64,000 bases of DNA. Source: a virus (lineage: Duplodnaviria; Heunggongvirae; Uroviricota; Caudoviricetes). Both the position numbers and the translations under genes were made by a program. Under the pieces are notes generated by a model that was not told the origin of the DNA, ran no database searches, and saw only the letters and a list, made by a program, of their open reading frames with translations. The stretch lies in IMG/VR virus record IMGVR_UViG_3300017917_002560, positions 10,096-74,095 of that record; one strand, given 5' to 3'. Positions 15,266 to 40,986 of this stretch are shown piece by piece; position 1 is the stretch's first letter; each line of letters begins with the position of its first letter.

Positions 15266-16027
15266 TTAAGATGTAACGTTGTCTACGATACCCAAATTGA
15301 TACCAGTTTGAGCTGTACCTGACTTGATCACAGTGCCTTCGTCTGTGAAGAAGTTGGCAACATAACGAACATCGTTTGTTACTTCGGCTTGTGTAAAGCC
15401 GTTACCACCAGTAAAGTCAAGCAAGAACTTGTTGGTCAACTTGCTGAGTGGAGTAGCTGTACTGTCGCCAGTTGATTCAGTGAATGTAATAGCCATCAAG
15501 CCCGCCGCTGGAGTTACGTCATTGTCTAGTACACATACGCCAACTGAATTAGCAACACCGTCACCGGCACCGCCAACTGAAGTAGCTGTAAACACATCAC
15601 CAACACCAGCACTTGCGGGTGCGCCAGCCAATGTCCAGTTGGTTGTTGTGCCTAGAGTAGCAATTTGATATGCTTGACCAACCACAAAGCTGCCGTCGTT
15701 GACACCAGTGGTATCGCCCACTAGATACTTACGTGACCCTTTCTGACGGATGATATATCCGGCAGCAACACCAATGCCTGTGCCGTCGGATGCGGCAATG
15801 TTAACAATTACATCAATTCTTGGATTTGTTGCAGTAGGTGCGTCTGTAGGTGCCGCTCCACCAACTACACCTAGGTACTGAGTACCACTTAGTGTGTCAG
15901 CAGTGTTGACCACAGGGTTGGTCAAACTAGCAAAGTTTGGAAAACCTAAGTCAATACCTACGGCTGCGCCAGGTGAACCTTGGCCAGAATTAGCTGAATA
16001 TTTTTGAATTTTGAGAGGACGTCCCAT
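15266..16027 (-). CDS. Conserved virion structural protein (~253 aa; start moved to MGRPLKIQK)
   Basis: SD AGGAGA precedes the ATG at 16027. Gly/Ala/Thr-rich; late promoter upstream and terminator downstream. Confidence 0.65.
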   Translation of the reverse strand: MGRPLKIQKYSANSGQGSPGAAVGIDLGFPNFASLTNPVVNTADTLSGTQYLGVVGGAAPTDAPTATNPRIDVIVNIAASDGTGIGVAAGYIIRQKGSRKYLVGDTTGVNDGSFVVGQAYQIATLGTTTNWTLAGAPASAGVGDVFTATSVGGAGDGVANSVGVCVLDNDVTPAAGLMAITFTESTGDSTATPLSKLTNKFLLDFTGGNGFTQAEVTNDVRYVANFFTDEGTVIKSGTAQTGINLGIVDNVTS

Positions 16028-16112
16028 TTTGTTTTCTCCTTTAAAGAAGCCCAATGCGGGTTCTAGCCGCTACGCGGTGGGTTTTAAGCTCCGCATAAAA
16101 CGCATTATTGCG

Positions 16113-16141
16113 TTGACTTGTATTTATGGAAAATGTACAAT
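16113..16141 (+). promoter_or_regulatory. sigma70-type promoter overlapping a divergent late promoter
   Basis: TTGACT-17 nt-TACAAT on plus; TAAATA on minus at 16121-16126 sits inside the spacer. Confidence 0.55.
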
Positions 16142-17317: not shown

Positions 17318-17335
17318 GTCGTATAATACAAACAT

Positions 17336-17409
17336 GCGCTAGGCCCGTATGGTACGGGAGAAGCCTCTAAAACTTCCGATAGTGGGTTCGATTCCCATCT
17401 AGCGCACCA
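17336..17409 (+). tRNA. tRNA with CUA anticodon (amber suppressor)
   Basis: Acceptor stem GCGCTAG/CTAGCGC, A73 and encoded CCA. D arm CCCGT-ATGGT-ACGGG. Anticodon arm GAAGC-CTCTAAA-ACTTC (C31-A39 mismatch). T arm GTGGG-TTCGATT-CCCAT. TATAAT lies at 17322-17327. Confidence 0.88.
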
Positions 17410-17615
17410 AGGCAGCGGTTTCTTTTTTTAAGTTGAATCCAGTATGAGTTGCACGGTAAGCTAGATAAATCCGTGGGCAGGCAATAGTATCAAAATGTAA
17501 CTTAAATGACAGCCAGGAAAGACTGGCACTAATAAATAAATTTGTAGGATGGTCCTACAAACCAACACTCTTTAAAAGATAGGTGTTTAGAGTGTACACC
17601 GTAAAAGGAGAAATC

Positions 17616-18359
17616 ATGATGTATGAATCAAAAATGGTCGCCGCCATTAAAGTAAACGGCAAAGTCCTACGTGAATTCAAGGACACAGTGCATATTCCAT
17701 TCTCTAGCGAATATAGCATTTTACTAAAAAACCTCAACACACAACGAGCAGTAGTCAATGTTTTCATTGATGGCGAAAACATAGTACCCAACGGCCTAGT
17801 GCTCAATGCTGGACAAGAAATTGATCTTGAACGATCAATCAAAAACGGTAACTTAACCGAGGGCAATCGTTTTAAGTTTATTGAACGCACTGGCTCTGTA
17901 GAGGCACATCGTGGTGTCAAGCTCGAAGATGGTATTGTACGAGTTGAGTTCCAGTTCGAACAACCACGTCCAATTTGGACCAACATCACATATAGCAACA
18001 ATCAAATTTATCCACAAGGTAGTATCCTGCGTGGTATGAACAACAGTGTTGGCCCAGTTGGTTCAGTGACTTGTTCTGCTACATACGACAGCTATTCTGC
18101 ATCAGCTACATCAGCCGTTGCCAACGACGTTGGCATTACTGTGCCTGGTAGCAAAAGCACTCAGTCTTTTTCAACTACCTATGTTGGCGTCCTAGAATCA
18201 ACTAAGCACACCATGGTGTTTAAACTATTGGGTGGTGAAGCTGTTAAGCAAGCTGTCACTGTCAAGCACAAACCCAAGTGTGTCACATGTGGCAAGCAAA
18301 ATAAAGCAACGGCAAAATTTTGTACAGAATGTGGCACGGCTCTAGAAATTTTTGCTTGA
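17616..18359 (+). CDS. Hypothetical protein with a C-terminal zinc ribbon (CxxC...CxxC)
   Basis: SD AAGGAG before the ATG at 17616; C-terminal KCVTCGKQNKATAKFCTECG. Confidence 0.75.
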   Translation: MMYESKMVAAIKVNGKVLREFKDTVHIPFSSEYSILLKNLNTQRAVVNVFIDGENIVPNGLVLNAGQEIDLERSIKNGNLTEGNRFKFIERTGSVEAHRGVKLEDGIVRVEFQFEQPRPIWTNITYSNNQIYPQGSILRGMNNSVGPVGSVTCSATYDSYSASATSAVANDVGITVPGSKSTQSFSTTYVGVLESTKHTMVFKLLGGEAVKQAVTVKHKPKCVTCGKQNKATAKFCTECGTALEIFA

Positions 18360-18384
18360 CACAGTGCAATCAATCATATATAAT
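18356..18384 (+). promoter_or_regulatory. Perfect-consensus sigma70 (early) promoter
   Basis: TTGACA (18356-18361)-17 nt-TATAAT (18379-18384). Confidence 0.8.
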
Positions 18385-18517
18385 GAGCACATGTTAGTAA
18401 ATTATATCATACTAGTATAGGTCATTAAACACTTATTATCTGCCCGGACTACTCCTCGTCTGACCAGCTTGGATGTCGCGGGCTTTTTCACGACCGTAAC
18501 TTTTAAAGGAGATCAAA

Positions 18518-19066
18518 ATGTCGTAGATTGAATATGCTTGCAAGGACGTAGTGTTCCATTTTAACAAAAAACACTTAGAAGACGAGACCATTCCTATGTG
18601 GGTCTTAAAAACACATGGAGAAACTTTTTATGTTGATCATGTCGAAGCTGACATGTCATGGAGTACAAAAGAAACGCCCAATAACTCACACACCAAAGGC
18701 AGTATCAAGTTCAAAGAAGTGTTGCTTCAAATTGACGAGCACAACTGCGCAAAGTTAAGCAAGCTATCTGTAATTGACAAAATTCGCTTGCGCAATCAAA
18801 AGCTAGGCATTACTCGAATCTTATTTGGGTGGAACAGCGACATCCATAAAGCATTAAAAAACAATGAGTTCAAGCACAGCCCTTTTAAAAATGTCGAGGG
18901 AGCATGCGGCACTAGCTATGTTGTATGTGACTTGTTGAAAAAAGAAGAAGCAACGTTTGCTGGGTTGAAATATCATTTTCGTGTGCTGATGCCAAACGAA
19001 ATGTATTATCAGTTCTACGACAGCAAGGAAAAGTATATCGATGAGATATACGAAGACGACGACTAA
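18518..19066 (+). CDS. Hypothetical protein (182 codons) with an in-frame amber codon at position 3 (MS*IEYACKDVVFHFNKKH...)
   Basis: SD AAAGGAG-atcaaa-ATG TCG TAG ATT GAA TAT GCT TGC AAG GAC GTA GTG is in frame with the track ORF 18551..19066. Confidence 0.7.
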
Positions 19067-19593
19067 CCAATACGCCAAACGCTACCGTCTGACCACACTG
19101 GCACAATGTTGCTGCCACCGTCTGTGATCTGGGCACCAAAGTTGCCTGCGGCTACTAAATTGGCATCATTGGCAAATCCGCGGAGACCAGTATTGCCAGC
19201 AGGATTAGGAAGATTGTTCAAGGGCATTACATCAAATATCATATATTTGGCTGAAAGTTGATCCAAGGCTCCAATTGTGTTGGCAAGAATGTTGTTAGTG
19301 ACAGAGATGTTACCACCGGTAATGTTGCCTGTAGTTGAAATAGTGTTGGATCCAAATGCGGCCAACAATGTTACTACGTTAGCATTACCATAATTGCCAG
19401 CTGACGAAACAGCAGTCAGCTGACCAGAATTATTGCCTACATATATTGCAGGTGGATTAGTCTCAAGATTAACTACAAGTTCGCCCGGACGTGCGTTGCC
19501 GTTGTATTGCGCTAGAGTGATCTGCGCATTGTCTTTCATTACAGCACGGCTTATACCTGTAATGTCATCATATGGTGGTGGTGAATTTGCCAT
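19063..19593 (-). CDS. Small structural protein with one GN fibre-type repeat (176 aa)
   Basis: TAAATA directly upstream; contains STTGNITGGNIS; ends in TAG, overlapping the convergent gene's stop. Confidence 0.65.
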   Translation of the reverse strand: MANSPPPYDDITGISRAVMKDNAQITLAQYNGNARPGELVVNLETNPPAIYVGNNSGQLTAVSSAGNYGNANVVTLLAAFGSNTISTTGNITGGNISVTNNILANTIGALDQLSAKYMIFDVMPLNNLPNPAGNTGLRGFANDANLVAAGNFGAQITDGGSNIVPVWSDGSVWRIG

Positions 19594-19613
19594 AACAATA
19601 TTTATATAACCAA

Positions 19614-19640
19614 CAAAAAAGGGCCTTGCGGCCCTTTTTG
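19614..19640. terminator. Bidirectional intrinsic terminator after the major capsid gene
   Basis: AAAAAGGGCC-TTGC-GGCCCTTTTT; GCAA tetraloop on the minus strand. Confidence 0.85.
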
Positions 19641-19662
19641 TGTTTTCGCAATCCGTATTGGA

Positions 19663-20859
19663 TTAACTGAAAGACAAGTTGCTGACAGCGATCTCGCCAA
19701 CATAGTCACCGGCGTTACCAAAGCTTGATGCTGTGTTGGTAAGTTCGATGTATCCGTAACGAGTCATGAAGCTCACGACTGGTTCGAATGTTGTTGGATC
19801 AAGAACAACGCCACTGCTCATCAACGGAATGTATGGGCAGTAGAATGCTGGAGCGTCAGCTTCGCTGGTGCCCTTATAACCAACCAACACTGGTGTAGTG
19901 TCGCTAGCATAAGAGTCAACAAACACACGCATTGCACCGTTCAATGTACCAACAAACTTGGTGTTTGTAGGTGCTTCGAATGTGCCTTCTGTTGTGCGAG
20001 CAAAAGCTGAAGTTGTTGCAGATTGCAACACTGTCAAAGCGGCAGAGCTTACAACAGCGTAGTTACCAGCGCCACGACGTGTACGCTGAGCGATCAAGTT
20101 AGCAACACGGTTGATTAGAACTGCCAATGCGGCGTGCTCGTCACCAACGAATGTAGCTGTACCAGATACAGTAGCTTGGTTGTATGTGAACTCAGTTGCG
20201 GCCAAACTGCGTAGGCTCAAGAGAATCTCTTGGTCAATTTCAGCAGTAATTTCTTGTGCTAGAGCAGCCATGATTTCTGCTTCAACGTCAATACCATGCA
20301 TGGCTTGTGCGTCTTGTGCAGATTCAAATGTCCAGCGAGCTTGCAACTTGCGTGTCTTAGCTTCAACAGCTTGCTTCAAGATCTGAACGGAAATTTGCTT
20401 ACCGCCAGTACCTTCCATAGTAGCTGTGTTACCACCATTGTAACTGGTTGTGCTATCAGTATCTTTAGGTACTGTAGAATATGCAGTTGCAATTGTGAAT
20501 GGGCTCAAAGCTTCTTGACCAGCTGTGACGCTTGTAGCGGCAGCACTGTTGTCTGTCAAGCTCTGTGCATAGCGAACACGCAGAGTGTGGATCTGACCAA
20601 CTGGGCCAGTCATAGGCTGAACACCTACCAACTCGTTAGCGATAACTGTTGGCATCACACGGCGGATAACTGGTAGAATCACACGGTTCAATGTAGCGAT
20701 ATTACCAGCAGTTGTGCTACCAGCACTTGCGTTTTCCTTCAAATACTTACGAGTATTTTCAAGAATAACTTTCATGCTGTTGCGTTTGGTACCACTTAGA
20801 CCCTCAAGAAGGGCCTCTTTGGTTTCATCCCAACGACTTTCTAATAGTTCTTGTGACAT
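19663..20859 (-). CDS. gp23: Major capsid protein (T4 gp23 family)
   Basis: VGVQPMTGPVGQIHTLR, AKTRKLQARWTFESAQDAQAMHGIDVEAE and FYCPYIPL motifs, ending MTRYG. Confidence 0.97.
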   Translation of the reverse strand: MSQELLESRWDETKEALLEGLSGTKRNSMKVILENTRKYLKENASAGSTTAGNIATLNRVILPVIRRVMPTVIANELVGVQPMTGPVGQIHTLRVRYAQSLTDNSAAATSVTAGQEALSPFTIATAYSTVPKDTDSTTSYNGGNTATMEGTGGKQISVQILKQAVEAKTRKLQARWTFESAQDAQAMHGIDVEAEIMAALAQEITAEIDQEILLSLRSLAATEFTYNQATVSGTATFVGDEHAALAVLINRVANLIAQRTRRGAGNYAVVSSAALTVLQSATTSAFARTTEGTFEAPTNTKFVGTLNGAMRVFVDSYASDTTPVLVGYKGTSEADAPAFYCPYIPLMSSGVVLDPTTFEPVVSFMTRYGYIELTNTASSFGNAGDYVGEIAVSNLSFS

Positions 20860-23818: not shown

Positions 23819-25621
23819 TTATGCGCCGGCTGCTGGAGGCGCACCACCGCCTGCGGGCAATACTCCGCCAGGACTCATAGCACCCGGAGCTTCAGCGCCA
23901 GCTGTGGTAGGTGCTCCACCAAATTGATCCATACCAGCAACTTGTTCGCCAGTTTGCAAGTCGCTTTCAATGCCACCTGGGGTAATGCCCACGCTACGTA
24001 AGTCTTGCCCCGAAGAAGTTTGTAGATCAGGTTGATCACGCTCTTCTCTCCAGAGCTCTTCGTTCTTCTTGATTTCTTCCTCAGTCAATCCCAAGAAACG
24101 TTCAAGCAAGAAACGCTTGCTCATGTAAGGCAATGCTTCTAGCGAAGTAAATGCTCCAATTCTGGTAGTATCCAATTCGGCTTGGCGATAGCTGGCAAAG
24201 TTTTGAGGTGGGTTAAACTTCAACGAGAACAAACTAGAGTCAATGTTAAATCCTCTCCACTTGAGAAACATTTTAAATTCGTCATCTAGTTTTTGTGCAA
24301 TCGCTGTTTGCAAACGCTCGCAGTATTGATTAAAACGGTATTCTTGAATCAGTGCTGTGCCCACTTTACCGTCGCTCATGGCGCGATCTGAATCGTCTGG
24401 TCCTGTGGGCAAATAGCTACTTGGCACACGCAAGCCACGTGCCATTTTATTGTTAAAATATTTTAAGTCGTCAATTTCGCCTAGATTTTGACCGCCTTGC
24501 AGTGTGTCAACTGAACTACCGCGACCGTCTGACGTTTGTGGGAAGAAGTAATCTTCGTTAATGCTGAGTGGGTTATAACTAGCATCCATCATGTTGTTGC
24601 CGCCGCCAGTTACTGTGGGGATTCTACGCTGGTGCATTTCGTTTTTAACACGCTCAACAAACTGCATAGCAAGGTGGCTAGGCATGTTACCAACGTCAAT
24701 TTTAAACACACGACGTTCTGGAGCACGACTTACACGATAGATAAGCACAGCATCTTCCAACAACTCTTTTTGCTTGAATACTTTGTAAATCTGTTCTAGC
24801 ACACTGCGTCCAAAAGGCCAAAATACGTCAAGACCTTCGTTTAAACTCATGTGAACAACGTGCTTGGCATCAATGCAAGTTTCGTTCATGGCTGTCATGA
24901 AACGACTGTTGCCCACACCGCCGCCAGTGCCGCCATTGGGCATGGTGTAGTTTGCGGCACCTGTGATTGATCCAGTCACAGGGTTGGTCATGTAGTCAGT
25001 TGTGGTTTTTTGCGCCACACTCATGTTCTGGAAATTGGGGTTAATGTCACGAATCACATATTGCTCAGGACGCTTGCCTTCGCTTTCATTTACAATGATT
25101 CTTGACACTTTGCTCATGTCAACCCACATCATTTCAAATGTTTCTGGGTCACGCACAAACACTTGATCGCCGTACTTAATGGTGTTGCGGAACAGTTTGA
25201 ATATGCGCTGATCTAACTGATTAAGCTTGGTCCACTGCTGTAGCTGTTTGCTAATAATATCAACTTCGTGATCAGTGGGCTTGTCGTTGTAAAAAATATC
25301 AAACGGTGTGTTATTTTGTTCGTTTAGTTGTGTAGAGAACTCAGCAATGATGTCTAAGCAAGCATTGATTTCTGAATCCATGTCCATGTTTTCGTATTGG
25401 TTGTAACGCTGAATACGGTTAGGATGTCCTGAGTAAACTTCTGGCAATCTACTTGCATAGTTACGGAACACAAAGTCCGGAGGCATGCCATTGTAGCCGC
25501 CGTTGTTGCGGCCATATCCGGGCAAACCAAATTGGTTACCACCCGAAATTGGGCTCATGACACCTGAGGTGTCTGCTACCTTGAAATACTTTTTCCAGCC
25601 TTGCTTGTTTTGATCTGCCAT
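23819..25621 (-). CDS. gp20: Portal protein (T4 gp20 family)
   Basis: IYRVSRAPERRVFKIDVGNMP, EDYFFP...GRGSSVDTLQGGQNLGEIDDLKYF and LRVPSSYL motifs. Confidence 0.96.
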   Translation of the reverse strand: MADQNKQGWKKYFKVADTSGVMSPISGGNQFGLPGYGRNNGGYNGMPPDFVFRNYASRLPEVYSGHPNRIQRYNQYENMDMDSEINACLDIIAEFSTQLNEQNNTPFDIFYNDKPTDHEVDIISKQLQQWTKLNQLDQRIFKLFRNTIKYGDQVFVRDPETFEMMWVDMSKVSRIIVNESEGKRPEQYVIRDINPNFQNMSVAQKTTTDYMTNPVTGSITGAANYTMPNGGTGGGVGNSRFMTAMNETCIDAKHVVHMSLNEGLDVFWPFGRSVLEQIYKVFKQKELLEDAVLIYRVSRAPERRVFKIDVGNMPSHLAMQFVERVKNEMHQRRIPTVTGGGNNMMDASYNPLSINEDYFFPQTSDGRGSSVDTLQGGQNLGEIDDLKYFNNKMARGLRVPSSYLPTGPDDSDRAMSDGKVGTALIQEYRFNQYCERLQTAIAQKLDDEFKMFLKWRGFNIDSSLFSLKFNPPQNFASYRQAELDTTRIGAFTSLEALPYMSKRFLLERFLGLTEEEIKKNEELWREERDQPDLQTSSGQDLRSVGITPGGIESDLQTGEQVAGMDQFGGAPTTAGAEAPGAMSPGGVLPAGGGAPPAAGA

Positions 25622-40089: not shown

Positions 40090-40986
40090 CTACTCATCAG
40101 TAGTAATCACAACCTCACTGGGCATATACGTAGGATCCTTTTTGCCAGCGTTCTGACGAGTCCAGCTTGGGTTCAAACCGTTCATTTCCAAAATGTCATC
40201 ACGGATATTTTGCATCTTCTTTTCAATGTTCAAAATACGTGTGAAGCTGTTGGTAATTGCGGCAGTGTAGTAAGCAAATGGATTTTGCGATTTGGATTCG
40301 TCAAACTGCAACCCAATTTGGCTAAGTTGTAGCAGAGCTTGGCCCCGCATTTCTTCATTATAGGTATAACCACGCCAGTTGCTACGTGTGGCATATCGTT
40401 CACACAGTTTCATAAACATCATGGCCAACTTGCGAGTCATAGTGCCGTGATCCTTGGAGAACTCTCCGTGCTCCAGATCGCCTTTCCAGTGCGACTTGCC
40501 TACAATATACGGTACCTTGTGCTCGTTAATTCTGTAGTGAAAGAATGGAGGAAAGTTAACTCTAATGTGTGTGGGATCCAGCACAGGTACATCAACAATG
40601 TCTTCAATGCTGTCGTCAACTACATCTTCTAAGTCTAGGATGTCTTCTAATCTGCGCTTTTTTGGGGCAGTTTTGCTGACTTTTTTAGGTGCTAGTGGTA
40701 TATGTTCCCATGTTGTGATTCTAAAAACAATGTCTGTATTGGGAATCTTTTTGGGGTCTAGCACAATACCGGTTTCTTTTTTAATGCGCTCTGCACGTAG
40801 TCTACGAGCTTCGGCAATGGTTTTTTGATTTATTTTTGCAACACTGGGCAAGATCATGTCGTATTGATGATCGGCTACAGGATCACGGAAACTACAGTAG
40901 GTGTTCTTGCTTAGGTGTATTTCTTTTAAGATATCTCTATTGTTGAGATAGTTGACTTTGGGTGCAGTCTTGGGAATAAGTGTCAT
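40090..40986 (-). CDS. gp55: Late-transcription sigma factor (T4 gp55-like)
   Basis: NYLNNRDIL...NWRGYTYNEEM...FDESKSQNPFAYYT...F..IEKK; immediately upstream of gp47, as in T4. Confidence 0.85.
   Translation of the reverse strand: MTLIPKTAPKVNYLNNRDILKEIHLSKNTYCSFRDPVADHQYDMILPSVAKINQKTIAEARRLRAERIKKETGIVLDPKKIPNTDIVFRITTWEHIPLAPKKVSKTAPKKRRLEDILDLEDVVDDSIEDIVDVPVLDPTHIRVNFPPFFHYRINEHKVPYIVGKSHWKGDLEHGEFSKDHGTMTRKLAMMFMKLCERYATRSNWRGYTYNEEMRGQALLQLSQIGLQFDESKSQNPFAYYTAAITNSFTRILNIEKKMQNIRDDILEMNGLNPSWTRQNAGKKDPTYMPSEVVITTDE

What the first reader, a model, noticed from the sequence alone, without database searches (positions are those of the whole stretch)
17336..17409. Amber-suppressor tRNA (CUA) in a phage that otherwise uses the standard code
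Seen: a complete cloverleaf with encoded CCA, anticodon loop CUCUAAA, a short 5-nt D loop and a C31-A39 mismatch. Known: CUA tRNAs accompany TAG-recoded phages, where late genes are full of TAGs. Here the longest late ORFs (2268 and >3570 codons) contain no in-frame TAG. The tRNA therefore seems to serve selective read-through rather than recoding.
Basis: partly seen in the sequence, partly recalled or inferred. Interest (0 to 1): 0.75.

Follow-up and report, generated by a model that had tools for sequence, protein, structure and literature searches.

The report
Phage stop-reading tRNA gating one gene
A large freshwater T4-like phage that otherwise uses the normal genetic code carries a tRNA that reads the UAG stop codon, and its evident target is one nearby gene that keeps a UAG as its third codon, a pairing kept in more than 70 related phages including a cultured Rhizobium phage.

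Summary
The tRNA(CUA) at 17336-17409 is real. ARAGORN calls it, Rfam scores it 41.5 bits, and it belongs to a family of at least 28 distinct phage sequences with strong compensatory covariation. Every member carries the anticodon CUA.

The tRNA is not an orphan. On the same strand, 1.1 kb downstream, gene 18518-19066 starts SD-ATG-TCG-TAG and continues in frame for 179 codons. In 60 distinct contexts from about 80 loci the TAG is invariant. Codon periodicity begins right after it. The ribosome-binding site tracks the upstream ATG whatever the leader length (2-9 codons). A family tRNA lies nearby in 71 of 82 loci and elsewhere on the contig in two more. Five large related contigs without the gene have no CUA tRNA. 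Cultured Rhizobium phage RHph_I1_18 has the same pair, and the gene is unannotated there.

My reading is a gene-specific amber "lock and key". Expression, charging, the inserted residue and the protein's function are not shown. Earlier reports of this scan describe the same module on other genomes. I found no publication describing it.

The parts
17322..17327 (+). TATAAT, a -10-like hexamer 8 nt upstream of the tRNA 5' end; possible promoter of the tRNA
   Evidence: Read directly from the sequence. TATAAT or TATAAAT-like hexamers sit at the same distance in L087, L088, L082 and L180. No good -35 element; function not tested.
17336..17409 (+). tRNA with anticodon CUA (reads UAG), CCA encoded, G1-C72, C2-G71, A73, C31.A39 mismatch
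   Evidence: ARAGORN; Rfam 41.5 bits; family alignment A2 and covariation; own covariance model R1 scores it 88.2 bits.
17616..18359 (+). 247-aa protein with a C-terminal zinc ribbon, lying between the tRNA and its target in this genome only (elsewhere in L083, absent in most loci)
   Evidence: Pfam Zn_Ribbon_1, E 3.1e-7; homolog upstream of the tRNA in L083; absent in L087 and L088.
18356..18384 (+). Consensus sigma-70-type promoter TTGACA-17-TATAAT in front of the gated gene
   Evidence: 12 of 12 matches. A consensus match only; not conserved in loci where the tRNA directly abuts the gene.
18385..18517 (+). Structured leader: conserved UAGGUC motif predicted to pair with the start/amber region, a covarying hairpin followed by a U run, then SD AAGGAG at 18506-18511
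   Evidence: RNAalifold on 5 loci: 24 pairs, 5 with compensatory changes. Present only in the subgroup next to the capsid gene.
18518..19066 (+). Amber-gated gene: ATG 18518-18520, TCG, TAG 18524-18526, then 179 sense codons and TAA; 182-aa product if the TAG is decoded
   Evidence: Sequence. TAG invariant in 60 of 60 distinct contexts, and third-position bias starts after the TAG. SD-ATG spacing is 5-9 nt whatever the leader length. More than 1375 homolog clusters. Confident two-domain model, pLDDT 85.6.
19063..19593 (-). 176-aa gene of the same variable island that ends in TAG (next in-frame stop 15 codons on); a possible collateral read-through target
   Evidence: ORF list and extension analysis. 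No family match.

Best explanation
The tRNA is a phage-encoded amber suppressor whose dedicated target is the UAG at codon 3 of the neighbouring gene 18518-19066. Ribosomes start at the SD-ATG and meet UAG two codons later. They make the conserved 182-aa protein only if the charged CUA tRNA beats release factor 1. So the protein's synthesis is tied to the presence and activity of the phage's own tRNA, as a two-part lock and key. All other genes seen on the contig use UAG, if at all, as a stop.

Shown: the tRNA's structure and covariation, the invariant TAG, translation of the frame after it, initiation geometry upstream of it, and co-occurrence of gene and tRNA.

Inferred: the tRNA is transcribed, processed, charged by a host synthetase, and suppresses. 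The inserted residue is unknown. The acceptor end is unlike tRNA-Gln. The nearest cellular acceptor stems are tRNA-Arg and tRNA-Leu, and by textbook identity rules U35 plus A73 would favour Lys. What the gate is for (timing, sensing the state of translation, or keeping the two genes together) is also inferred.
For: 1. The tRNA is real and under selection. A pattern scan with the anticodon left free returned only CTA. All 71 family members scoring above 60 bits have CTA.
2. The TAG is fixed in 79 of 79 loci and 60 of 60 distinct contexts. The next codon is Ile with synonymous variation (ATT 55, ATC 4, ATA 1). Differences by codon position after the TAG are 6848/4584/17343, against a flat 26559/27690/27457 before it.
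3. SD-ATG spacing stays 5-9 nt for leaders of 2, 3, 4 and 9 codons, while SD-TAG spacing ranges 11-32 nt. No conserved canonical start follows the TAG.
4. Linkage: 71 of 82 loci have the tRNA on the same strand, mostly 100-1400 nt upstream and in some cases abutting the SD. Two further contigs have it 3.1 and 8.5 kb away. The remaining loci are contig ends or 11-kb fragments.
5. Five large related contigs lack the gene and have no CUA tRNA.
6. The pair sits in unrelated neighbourhoods: GT9/capsid; RNR/PAAR/AhpC; a tRNA region of Rhizobium phage RHph_I1_18.
7. In this contig it is the only convincing in-frame TAG.
8. In TAG-free distant homologs the equivalent position is M, T, R or N, so any residue would do there. 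This fits a gate better than a special amino acid.
Against: Several probably genuine genes on the contig end in TAG (for example 19063-19593 and 40090-40986). An efficient suppressor would extend them, which is a cost.

One distant homolog locus (L171) has a CUA tRNA directly upstream of a copy without TAG, so linkage does not strictly require the amber codon.

The contig is only about 35% complete, so other targets may exist.

The function of the gated protein is unknown, so no purpose for the gate can be demonstrated.
Confidence: 0.72

Rival explanations
1. General suppressor. The tRNA's main job is genome- or host-wide read-through of UAG terminators (C-terminal extensions of phage or host proteins, host shut-off, or buffering of nonsense mutations). 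The amber gene would then be a passenger or reporter of that activity.
For: TAG terminates up to 13 of 130 tiled ORFs here, including 19063-19593 in the same island. L171 shows a CUA tRNA beside a TAG-free homolog. The literature offers these roles for orphan suppressor tRNAs (PMC8386662).
Against: No TAG-terminated gene has a long or conserved in-frame extension; median 24 codons, maximum 71. The tRNA co-occurs with, and is physically tied to, one gene family across unrelated genome contexts.
Confidence: 0.1
2. Mini-ORF and reinitiation. The TAG is a true stop of a 2-9-codon upstream ORF. The conserved protein is started at the adjacent AUU/AUC/AUA by termination-reinitiation, independently of the tRNA.
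For: The codon after the TAG is always Ile (ATT in 55 of 60), and AUU is a known rare start codon (established knowledge, e.g. infC). TAG-free distant homologs place their ATG at exactly the TAG position.
Against: ATC and ATA also occur. No canonical start overlaps the stop. The model does not explain why a CUA tRNA accompanies the gene in every sufficiently covered contig and is absent where the gene is absent.
Confidence: 0.07
3. Transitional state on the way to TAG recoding. A standard-code phage acquired a suppressor tRNA and has only its first in-frame TAG (the model of bioRxiv 10.1101/2021.08.26.457843).
For: That preprint reports suppressor tRNAs in standard-code relatives of recoded phages. 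TAG is the rarest stop here.
Against: The same single TAG at the same position is kept in 60 distinct contexts at 62-100% protein identity and in a Rhizobium phage, with no spread to other genes. It looks stable, not transitional. GC is 44.6%, not the low GC that the model invokes.
Confidence: 0.05
4. Inactive relic or a non-translational role. The tRNA-like gene would be a processing signal, a decoy for host nucleases or a recombination site, and the gene would be a pseudogene.
For: ARAGORN misses many family members because of odd D arms (against 53). The bottom anticodon-stem pair is mismatched in most members.
Against: Acceptor and T stems are 100% paired with compensatory changes. U33, A37, G18G19, the T loop and CCA are conserved, and the anticodon is invariant. 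The gene shows coding periodicity and a confident fold.
Confidence: 0.03

Closest known systems
TAG-recoded ('code 15') phages with phage-encoded suppressor tRNAs, and their 'code-change modules' (bioRxiv 10.1101/2021.08.26.457843; crAss-like and Lak phages)
   Same: A phage-encoded CUA tRNA is proposed to override UAG in a standard-code host, with stop-codon decoding used to control which phage proteins are made.
   Different: In those phages tens of late genes carry in-frame TAGs. Here there is one gene with one TAG at a fixed early position, the rest of the contig uses the standard code, and the tRNA is physically tied to that gene. Nothing here supports Gln as the inserted residue.
Classical amber suppressors (E. 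coli supE/supF; T4 psu tRNAs, McClain 1970 as cited in PMC8386662)
   Same: An elongator tRNA with anticodon CUA. The anticodon loop CUCUAAA is the same as that of supF (my own recollection of the supF loop, not tested here).
   Different: Those are laboratory mutants of sense tRNAs that rescue accidental nonsense mutations. This is a natural, conserved, covarying family with a conserved natural target, and it has no close sense paralog in the phage (at most 68% identity).
Gene-specific stop-codon decoding by dedicated tRNAs (selenocysteine selC/SECIS; pyrrolysine pylT/pylS)
   Same: A dedicated tRNA plus a conserved in-frame stop at a fixed position of a protein family.
   Different: The tRNA lacks the Pyl and Sec hallmarks (see Membership tests). 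No synthase or synthetase partner was seen next to it. The position is not conserved as any residue in TAG-free homologs, so a special amino acid is unlikely.
Engineered amber-codon gene switches with orthogonal suppressor tRNAs (synthetic biology; from my own knowledge)
   Same: The same logic: an early amber codon makes expression conditional on a suppressor tRNA.
   Different: This one is natural, phage-borne and conserved. There is no dedicated synthetase, and charging presumably relies on a host enzyme.

Membership tests
Canonical elongator tRNA (Rfam RF00005) | Cloverleaf with a 7-bp acceptor stem and 5-bp T stem, T loop UUCGAUU, G18G19, U33, purine 37 | tested here: met
   Rfam 41.5 bits against gathering 29. 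Acceptor and T helices are 100% paired across 28 sequences with compensatory changes. The D arm is atypical: one linker base and a long stem.
Canonical elongator tRNA (Rfam RF00005) | Is transcribed, processed and aminoacylated | not testable with these tools
tRNA-Pyl (pylT) | 6-bp anticodon stem, 3-nt variable loop, no G18G19 and no T-psi-C sequence | tested here: not met
   The anticodon stem is 4-5 bp, the variable loop is 5 nt, GG is present in the D loop and the T loop is UUCGAUU. The ARAGORN label 'Pyl' reflects the anticodon only.
tRNA-Pyl (pylT) | Accompanied by pylS/pylBCD | not tested
   No aaRS-like gene lies among the neighbours examined. The whole contig was not searched for pylS.
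Bacterial initiator tRNA (amber-initiator reading) | Mismatch at 1-72 and three G-C pairs at the bottom of the anticodon stem | tested here: not met
   G1-C72 is invariant. The anticodon stem is GAAGC/ACUUC with a mismatched bottom pair. The SD also tracks an upstream ATG.
TAG-recoded (code 15) phage | Many in-frame TAG codons in phage genes, so that ORFs are fragmented under table 11 | tested here: not met
   91.7% coverage under table 11, no gain with TAG read as sense, and one convincing in-frame TAG on the contig.
TAG-recoded (code 15) phage | Phage-encoded Sup(CUA) tRNA | tested here: met
TAG-recoded (code 15) phage | TAG decoded as glutamine | tested here: inconclusive
   The Q in database homologs stands where the DNA of all 79 loci has TAG, so it is most likely a code-15-style translation. 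The acceptor end (G1-C72, C2-G71, A73) differs from the phages' own tRNA-Gln (U1, G73). Cellular tRNAs with the same acceptor strand are mostly Leu, then Arg.
Amber-gated gene plus suppressor tRNA module (as noted repeatedly by this scan, unpublished) | Conserved in-frame TAG within the first ~10 codons after a good SD-ATG, and a CUA tRNA in the same genome, usually same strand and nearby | tested here: met

The most novel reading that the evidence does not exclude
The pair is a self-contained natural translational sensor or timer. Output of the gated protein (an OB-like beta domain, a ferredoxin-like ACT/RRM-type domain and an acidic tail) reports the ratio of charged suppressor tRNA to release factor 1. 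This would let the phage read the state of the host translation apparatus, for example tRNA-targeting defence or the stage of infection, and switch a function accordingly. The module moves between phage genomes as a unit because each half is useless without the other.
Probability: 0.15. Interest if true: 0.85.

Novelty: new variant of a known kind. Interest (0 to 1): 0.74.

Why it matters
Suppressor tRNAs found in phages that use the standard code have been treated as unexplained, or as first steps towards recoding. Here the tRNA has a specific, conserved, single-codon target next door. That gives these orphan tRNAs a concrete job: stop-codon decoding used as a gene-specific switch, not a change of code.

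It also shows that gene callers mis-handle this large family of more than 1375 clusters. They truncate the gene, translate it with TAG=Q, or leave it unannotated, as in GenBank MN988519.1.

The module is small, natural and present in a cultured Rhizobium phage, so the idea can be tested directly. It could also serve as a compact natural part for conditional expression.

Tried and rejected
- **Genome-wide TAG recoding.** Rejected.
- **Programmed C-terminal read-through of TAG-terminated genes.** No long or notable extensions.
- **tRNA-Pyl and amber-initiator readings.** Rejected on structure.
- **Gln at the TAG position.** I first inferred it from database homologs (MAQIEY...). I withdrew it when all 79 loci showed TAG in the DNA at that position.
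- **Recent duplicate of one of the phage's 39 other tRNAs.** None is closer than 68%.
- **Second gated gene.** A radical-SAM gene at contig 89203 has a normal internal ATG start. PTH2 at contig 129601-129969 starts ATG-GAA with no TAG. Candidates in the tRNA array are spurious ORFs over tRNA genes.
- **Amber-terminated leader peptide (ATG...TAG-GTC) upstream of the gene.** It occurs only in one subgroup. The motif is better explained as one strand of a helix with the start region. Left open.
- **Function of the gated protein.** Nothing came from Pfam, PHROGs or NCBIfam, Atlas features, the PDB sequence profile or Foldseek PDB. VIA-align gave only Z 5-6 ferredoxin-like matches for residues 97-172 and Z up to 3.7 OB-like matches for residues 1-96. 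AFDB clusters and BFVD gave only uncharacterised proteins.
- **Search attempts.** A first, too strict, tRNA pattern found nothing. DNA similarity to isolated phages found only the capsid gene.
- **Neighbouring genes in other contexts.** RNR small subunit, PAAR, DUF454, AhpC, aldolase II and CMD include no synthetase or release factor.
- **Literature.** Three searches found no description of a single-gene amber gate with its own tRNA.

Full report
**Observation.** ARAGORN finds exactly one tRNA in the window, at 17336-17409 (+), with anticodon CTA. Rfam's tRNA model matches at 41.5 bits against a gathering score of 29. The sequence shows an encoded CCA, the anticodon loop CUCUAAA, a non-standard C31.A39 pair, and one base between the acceptor and D stems. 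The D arm can be drawn as 4 bp with a 7-nt loop or up to 6 bp with a 3-nt loop.

**Genome context.** The window lies in a single 138,095-bp viral contig, about 35% complete by CheckV. It is a T4-like phage, with a Gp23 capsid gene at 19663-20859 and a Gp20 portal gene at 23819-25621. It carries freshwater RNA motifs. The contig has 39 other tRNAs in an array at its far end. The CUA tRNA sits alone, 100 kb away, and has no close paralog among them (at most 68% identity).

**Genetic code.**
- Under table 11 a greedy tiling gives 130 ORFs covering 91.7% of the contig, with stops TAA 78, TGA 39 and TAG 13.
- Reading TAG as sense adds essentially nothing.
- TAG-terminated ORFs have short in-frame extensions.
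- Every TAG that joins two long open segments lies in an off-frame or antisense reading of a real gene.
- The phage is therefore not recoded.

**The tRNA is a family.**
- None of 80 capsid-gene relatives showed a tRNA by ARAGORN.
- BLAST and Rfam nevertheless found a homolog in L046, again with CUA.
- A pattern scan with the anticodon left free returned six viral contigs, all CTA.
- Twenty-eight distinct sequences align with 95.5% of cells paired and 15 of 20 pairs showing double changes. This exceeds all 500 shuffles and all slid controls.
- G1-C72, C2-G71, A73, U33, CUA, A37, G18G19 and the T loop are conserved.
- The bottom anticodon-stem pair is C.A, A.C, U.G or A-U.

**The target.**
- Comparing neighbourhoods showed one conserved partner, the ORF listed as 18551-19066.
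- Its real start is SD (AAGGAG, 18506-18511), ATG (18518-18520), TCG, TAG (18524-18526), then ATT GAA TAT and so on in frame.
- In 79 of 79 loci fetched with a family alignment, the codon before I-E-[YF]-A-C is TAG.
- In 60 distinct contexts the TAG is invariant. The following Ile codon varies synonymously.
- Nucleotide differences show strong third-position bias after the TAG and none before it.
- The SD keeps a 5-9-nt spacing to the upstream ATG whether the leader has 2, 3, 4 or 9 codons.
- Ribosomes therefore start upstream and must decode the UAG.

**Co-occurrence.**
- My covariance model finds a family tRNA (above 60 bits, always CUA, same strand) in 71 of 82 loci. It is usually 100-1400 nt upstream and sometimes directly abuts the SD.
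- Two contigs lacking a nearby copy have one 3.1 and 8.5 kb away.
- The rest are contig ends or 11-kb fragments.
- Five large related contigs (25-86% complete) have neither the gene nor a CUA tRNA.
- The pair sits in unrelated neighbourhoods, and the neighbours include no synthetase or release factor.
- Cultured Rhizobium phage RHph_I1_18 has an 82-aa version with TAG at codon 6, followed 11 nt later by a tRNA(CUA). The gene is unannotated there.

**Limits and exceptions.**
- More distant homologs (40-58% identity) start with a plain ATG at the TAG position.
- One of these (L171) still has a CUA tRNA upstream.
- In this contig no other gene is convincingly amber-gated, and PTH2 is not.

**Which amino acid?**
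- The 'Q' in database homologs is most likely TAG translated as Gln by gene callers.
- The acceptor end is unlike the phages' own tRNA-Gln.
- Cellular tRNAs sharing the acceptor 3' strand are mainly class-II Leu, and among class-I tRNAs Arg.
- By textbook identity rules, U35 with A73 favours Lys.
- The residue is unresolved. It is probably unimportant, because the position varies in TAG-free homologs.

**The protein.**
- The AlphaFold model is confident: pLDDT 85.6 for the whole protein and 91.4 for the N-terminal domain.
- It has a beta-rich N-terminal domain, a ferredoxin-like C-terminal domain and an acidic tail.
- No search gave a convincing relative of known function.
- The N-terminal domain also occurs at the C-terminus of other small proteins of about 180 aa.

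**Regulatory surroundings.** A consensus sigma-70 promoter precedes the gene here. In the subgroup next to the capsid gene, a structured leader is predicted to pair a conserved UAGGUC motif with the start/amber region.

**Comparison and novelty.** The closest published system is TAG recoding with phage suppressor tRNAs. That work notes suppressor tRNAs in standard-code relatives as possible precursors. Other papers leave such tRNAs unexplained. I found no description of a single-gene gate. I reached it independently and re-tested it here.

**Verdict.** The interpretation (selective decoding, not recoding) is supported and made specific. Mechanism confidence is about 0.7, pending any experimental evidence.

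Noticed in passing
window 32564-32700 (-) and 16025-16115 (-): Rfam finds a full-length Polynucleobacter-1 RNA (114.5 bits) and a freshwater-2 RNA (72.1 bits). The freshwater-2 match ends in the SD and ATG of gene 15266-16027, and it recurs at the same place in L046. These are hints to a freshwater, possibly Polynucleobacter-like, host.
   Followed up: no
L091 3552-3605; also L092-L096, L104, L111, L124, L149, L159, L168: Right after the gated gene, many relatives carry a tRNA-like 3' half: a T arm plus an acceptor strand ending GGTCCACCA, resembling the 3' end of tmRNA. My tRNA model scores these 23-28 bits. None is present in this window.
   Followed up: no
window 18385-18526; L087 3800-3931; L088; L098; L100: Structured leader. 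Conserved UAGGUCGU is predicted to pair with AUGGCCUA (start plus amber codon), enclosing a covarying hairpin followed by a U run. In these loci a short ORF (ATG plus 2-9 codons) also ends at that upstream TAG.
   Followed up: partly
L171 2430-2670: A distant, TAG-free homolog has a CUA tRNA 150 nt upstream. Its leader contains ATG-ACC-TAG. If read through, this runs 33 codons and ends in an ATGA overlap with the main start, a possible amber-gated coupled upstream ORF.
   Followed up: partly
L181 (MN988519.1 9521-12724), 1477-1725 and 1737-1814: Rhizobium phage RHph_I1_18 has an unannotated 82-aa homolog with TAG at codon 6, directly followed by the tRNA annotated 'tRNA-Pyl(cta)'. This is an annotation gap in a cultured phage.
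   Followed up: yes
window 17318-19662: The 2.3-kb stretch between the convergent TPR/GT9 gene and the capsid gene is a variable island. In L002 the two genes are only 184 nt apart. Here the island holds the tRNA, a zinc-ribbon gene, the gated gene and a TAG-terminated 176-aa gene whose N-terminus resembles a tail-fibre N-terminal motif (my own impression, not tested).
   Followed up: partly
contig C1 125712-137318 (outside the window): ARAGORN's 39 array tRNAs cover 19 amino acids and include no tRNA-Tyr. One tRNA-Ile(UAU) is 92 nt long.
   Followed up: no
proteins P0003-P0122: Public protein collections hold this family in three forms: truncated at a downstream GTG or ATG, with Q at the TAG position, or absent. 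Short contigs were evidently called under a TAG=Q code.
   Followed up: partly
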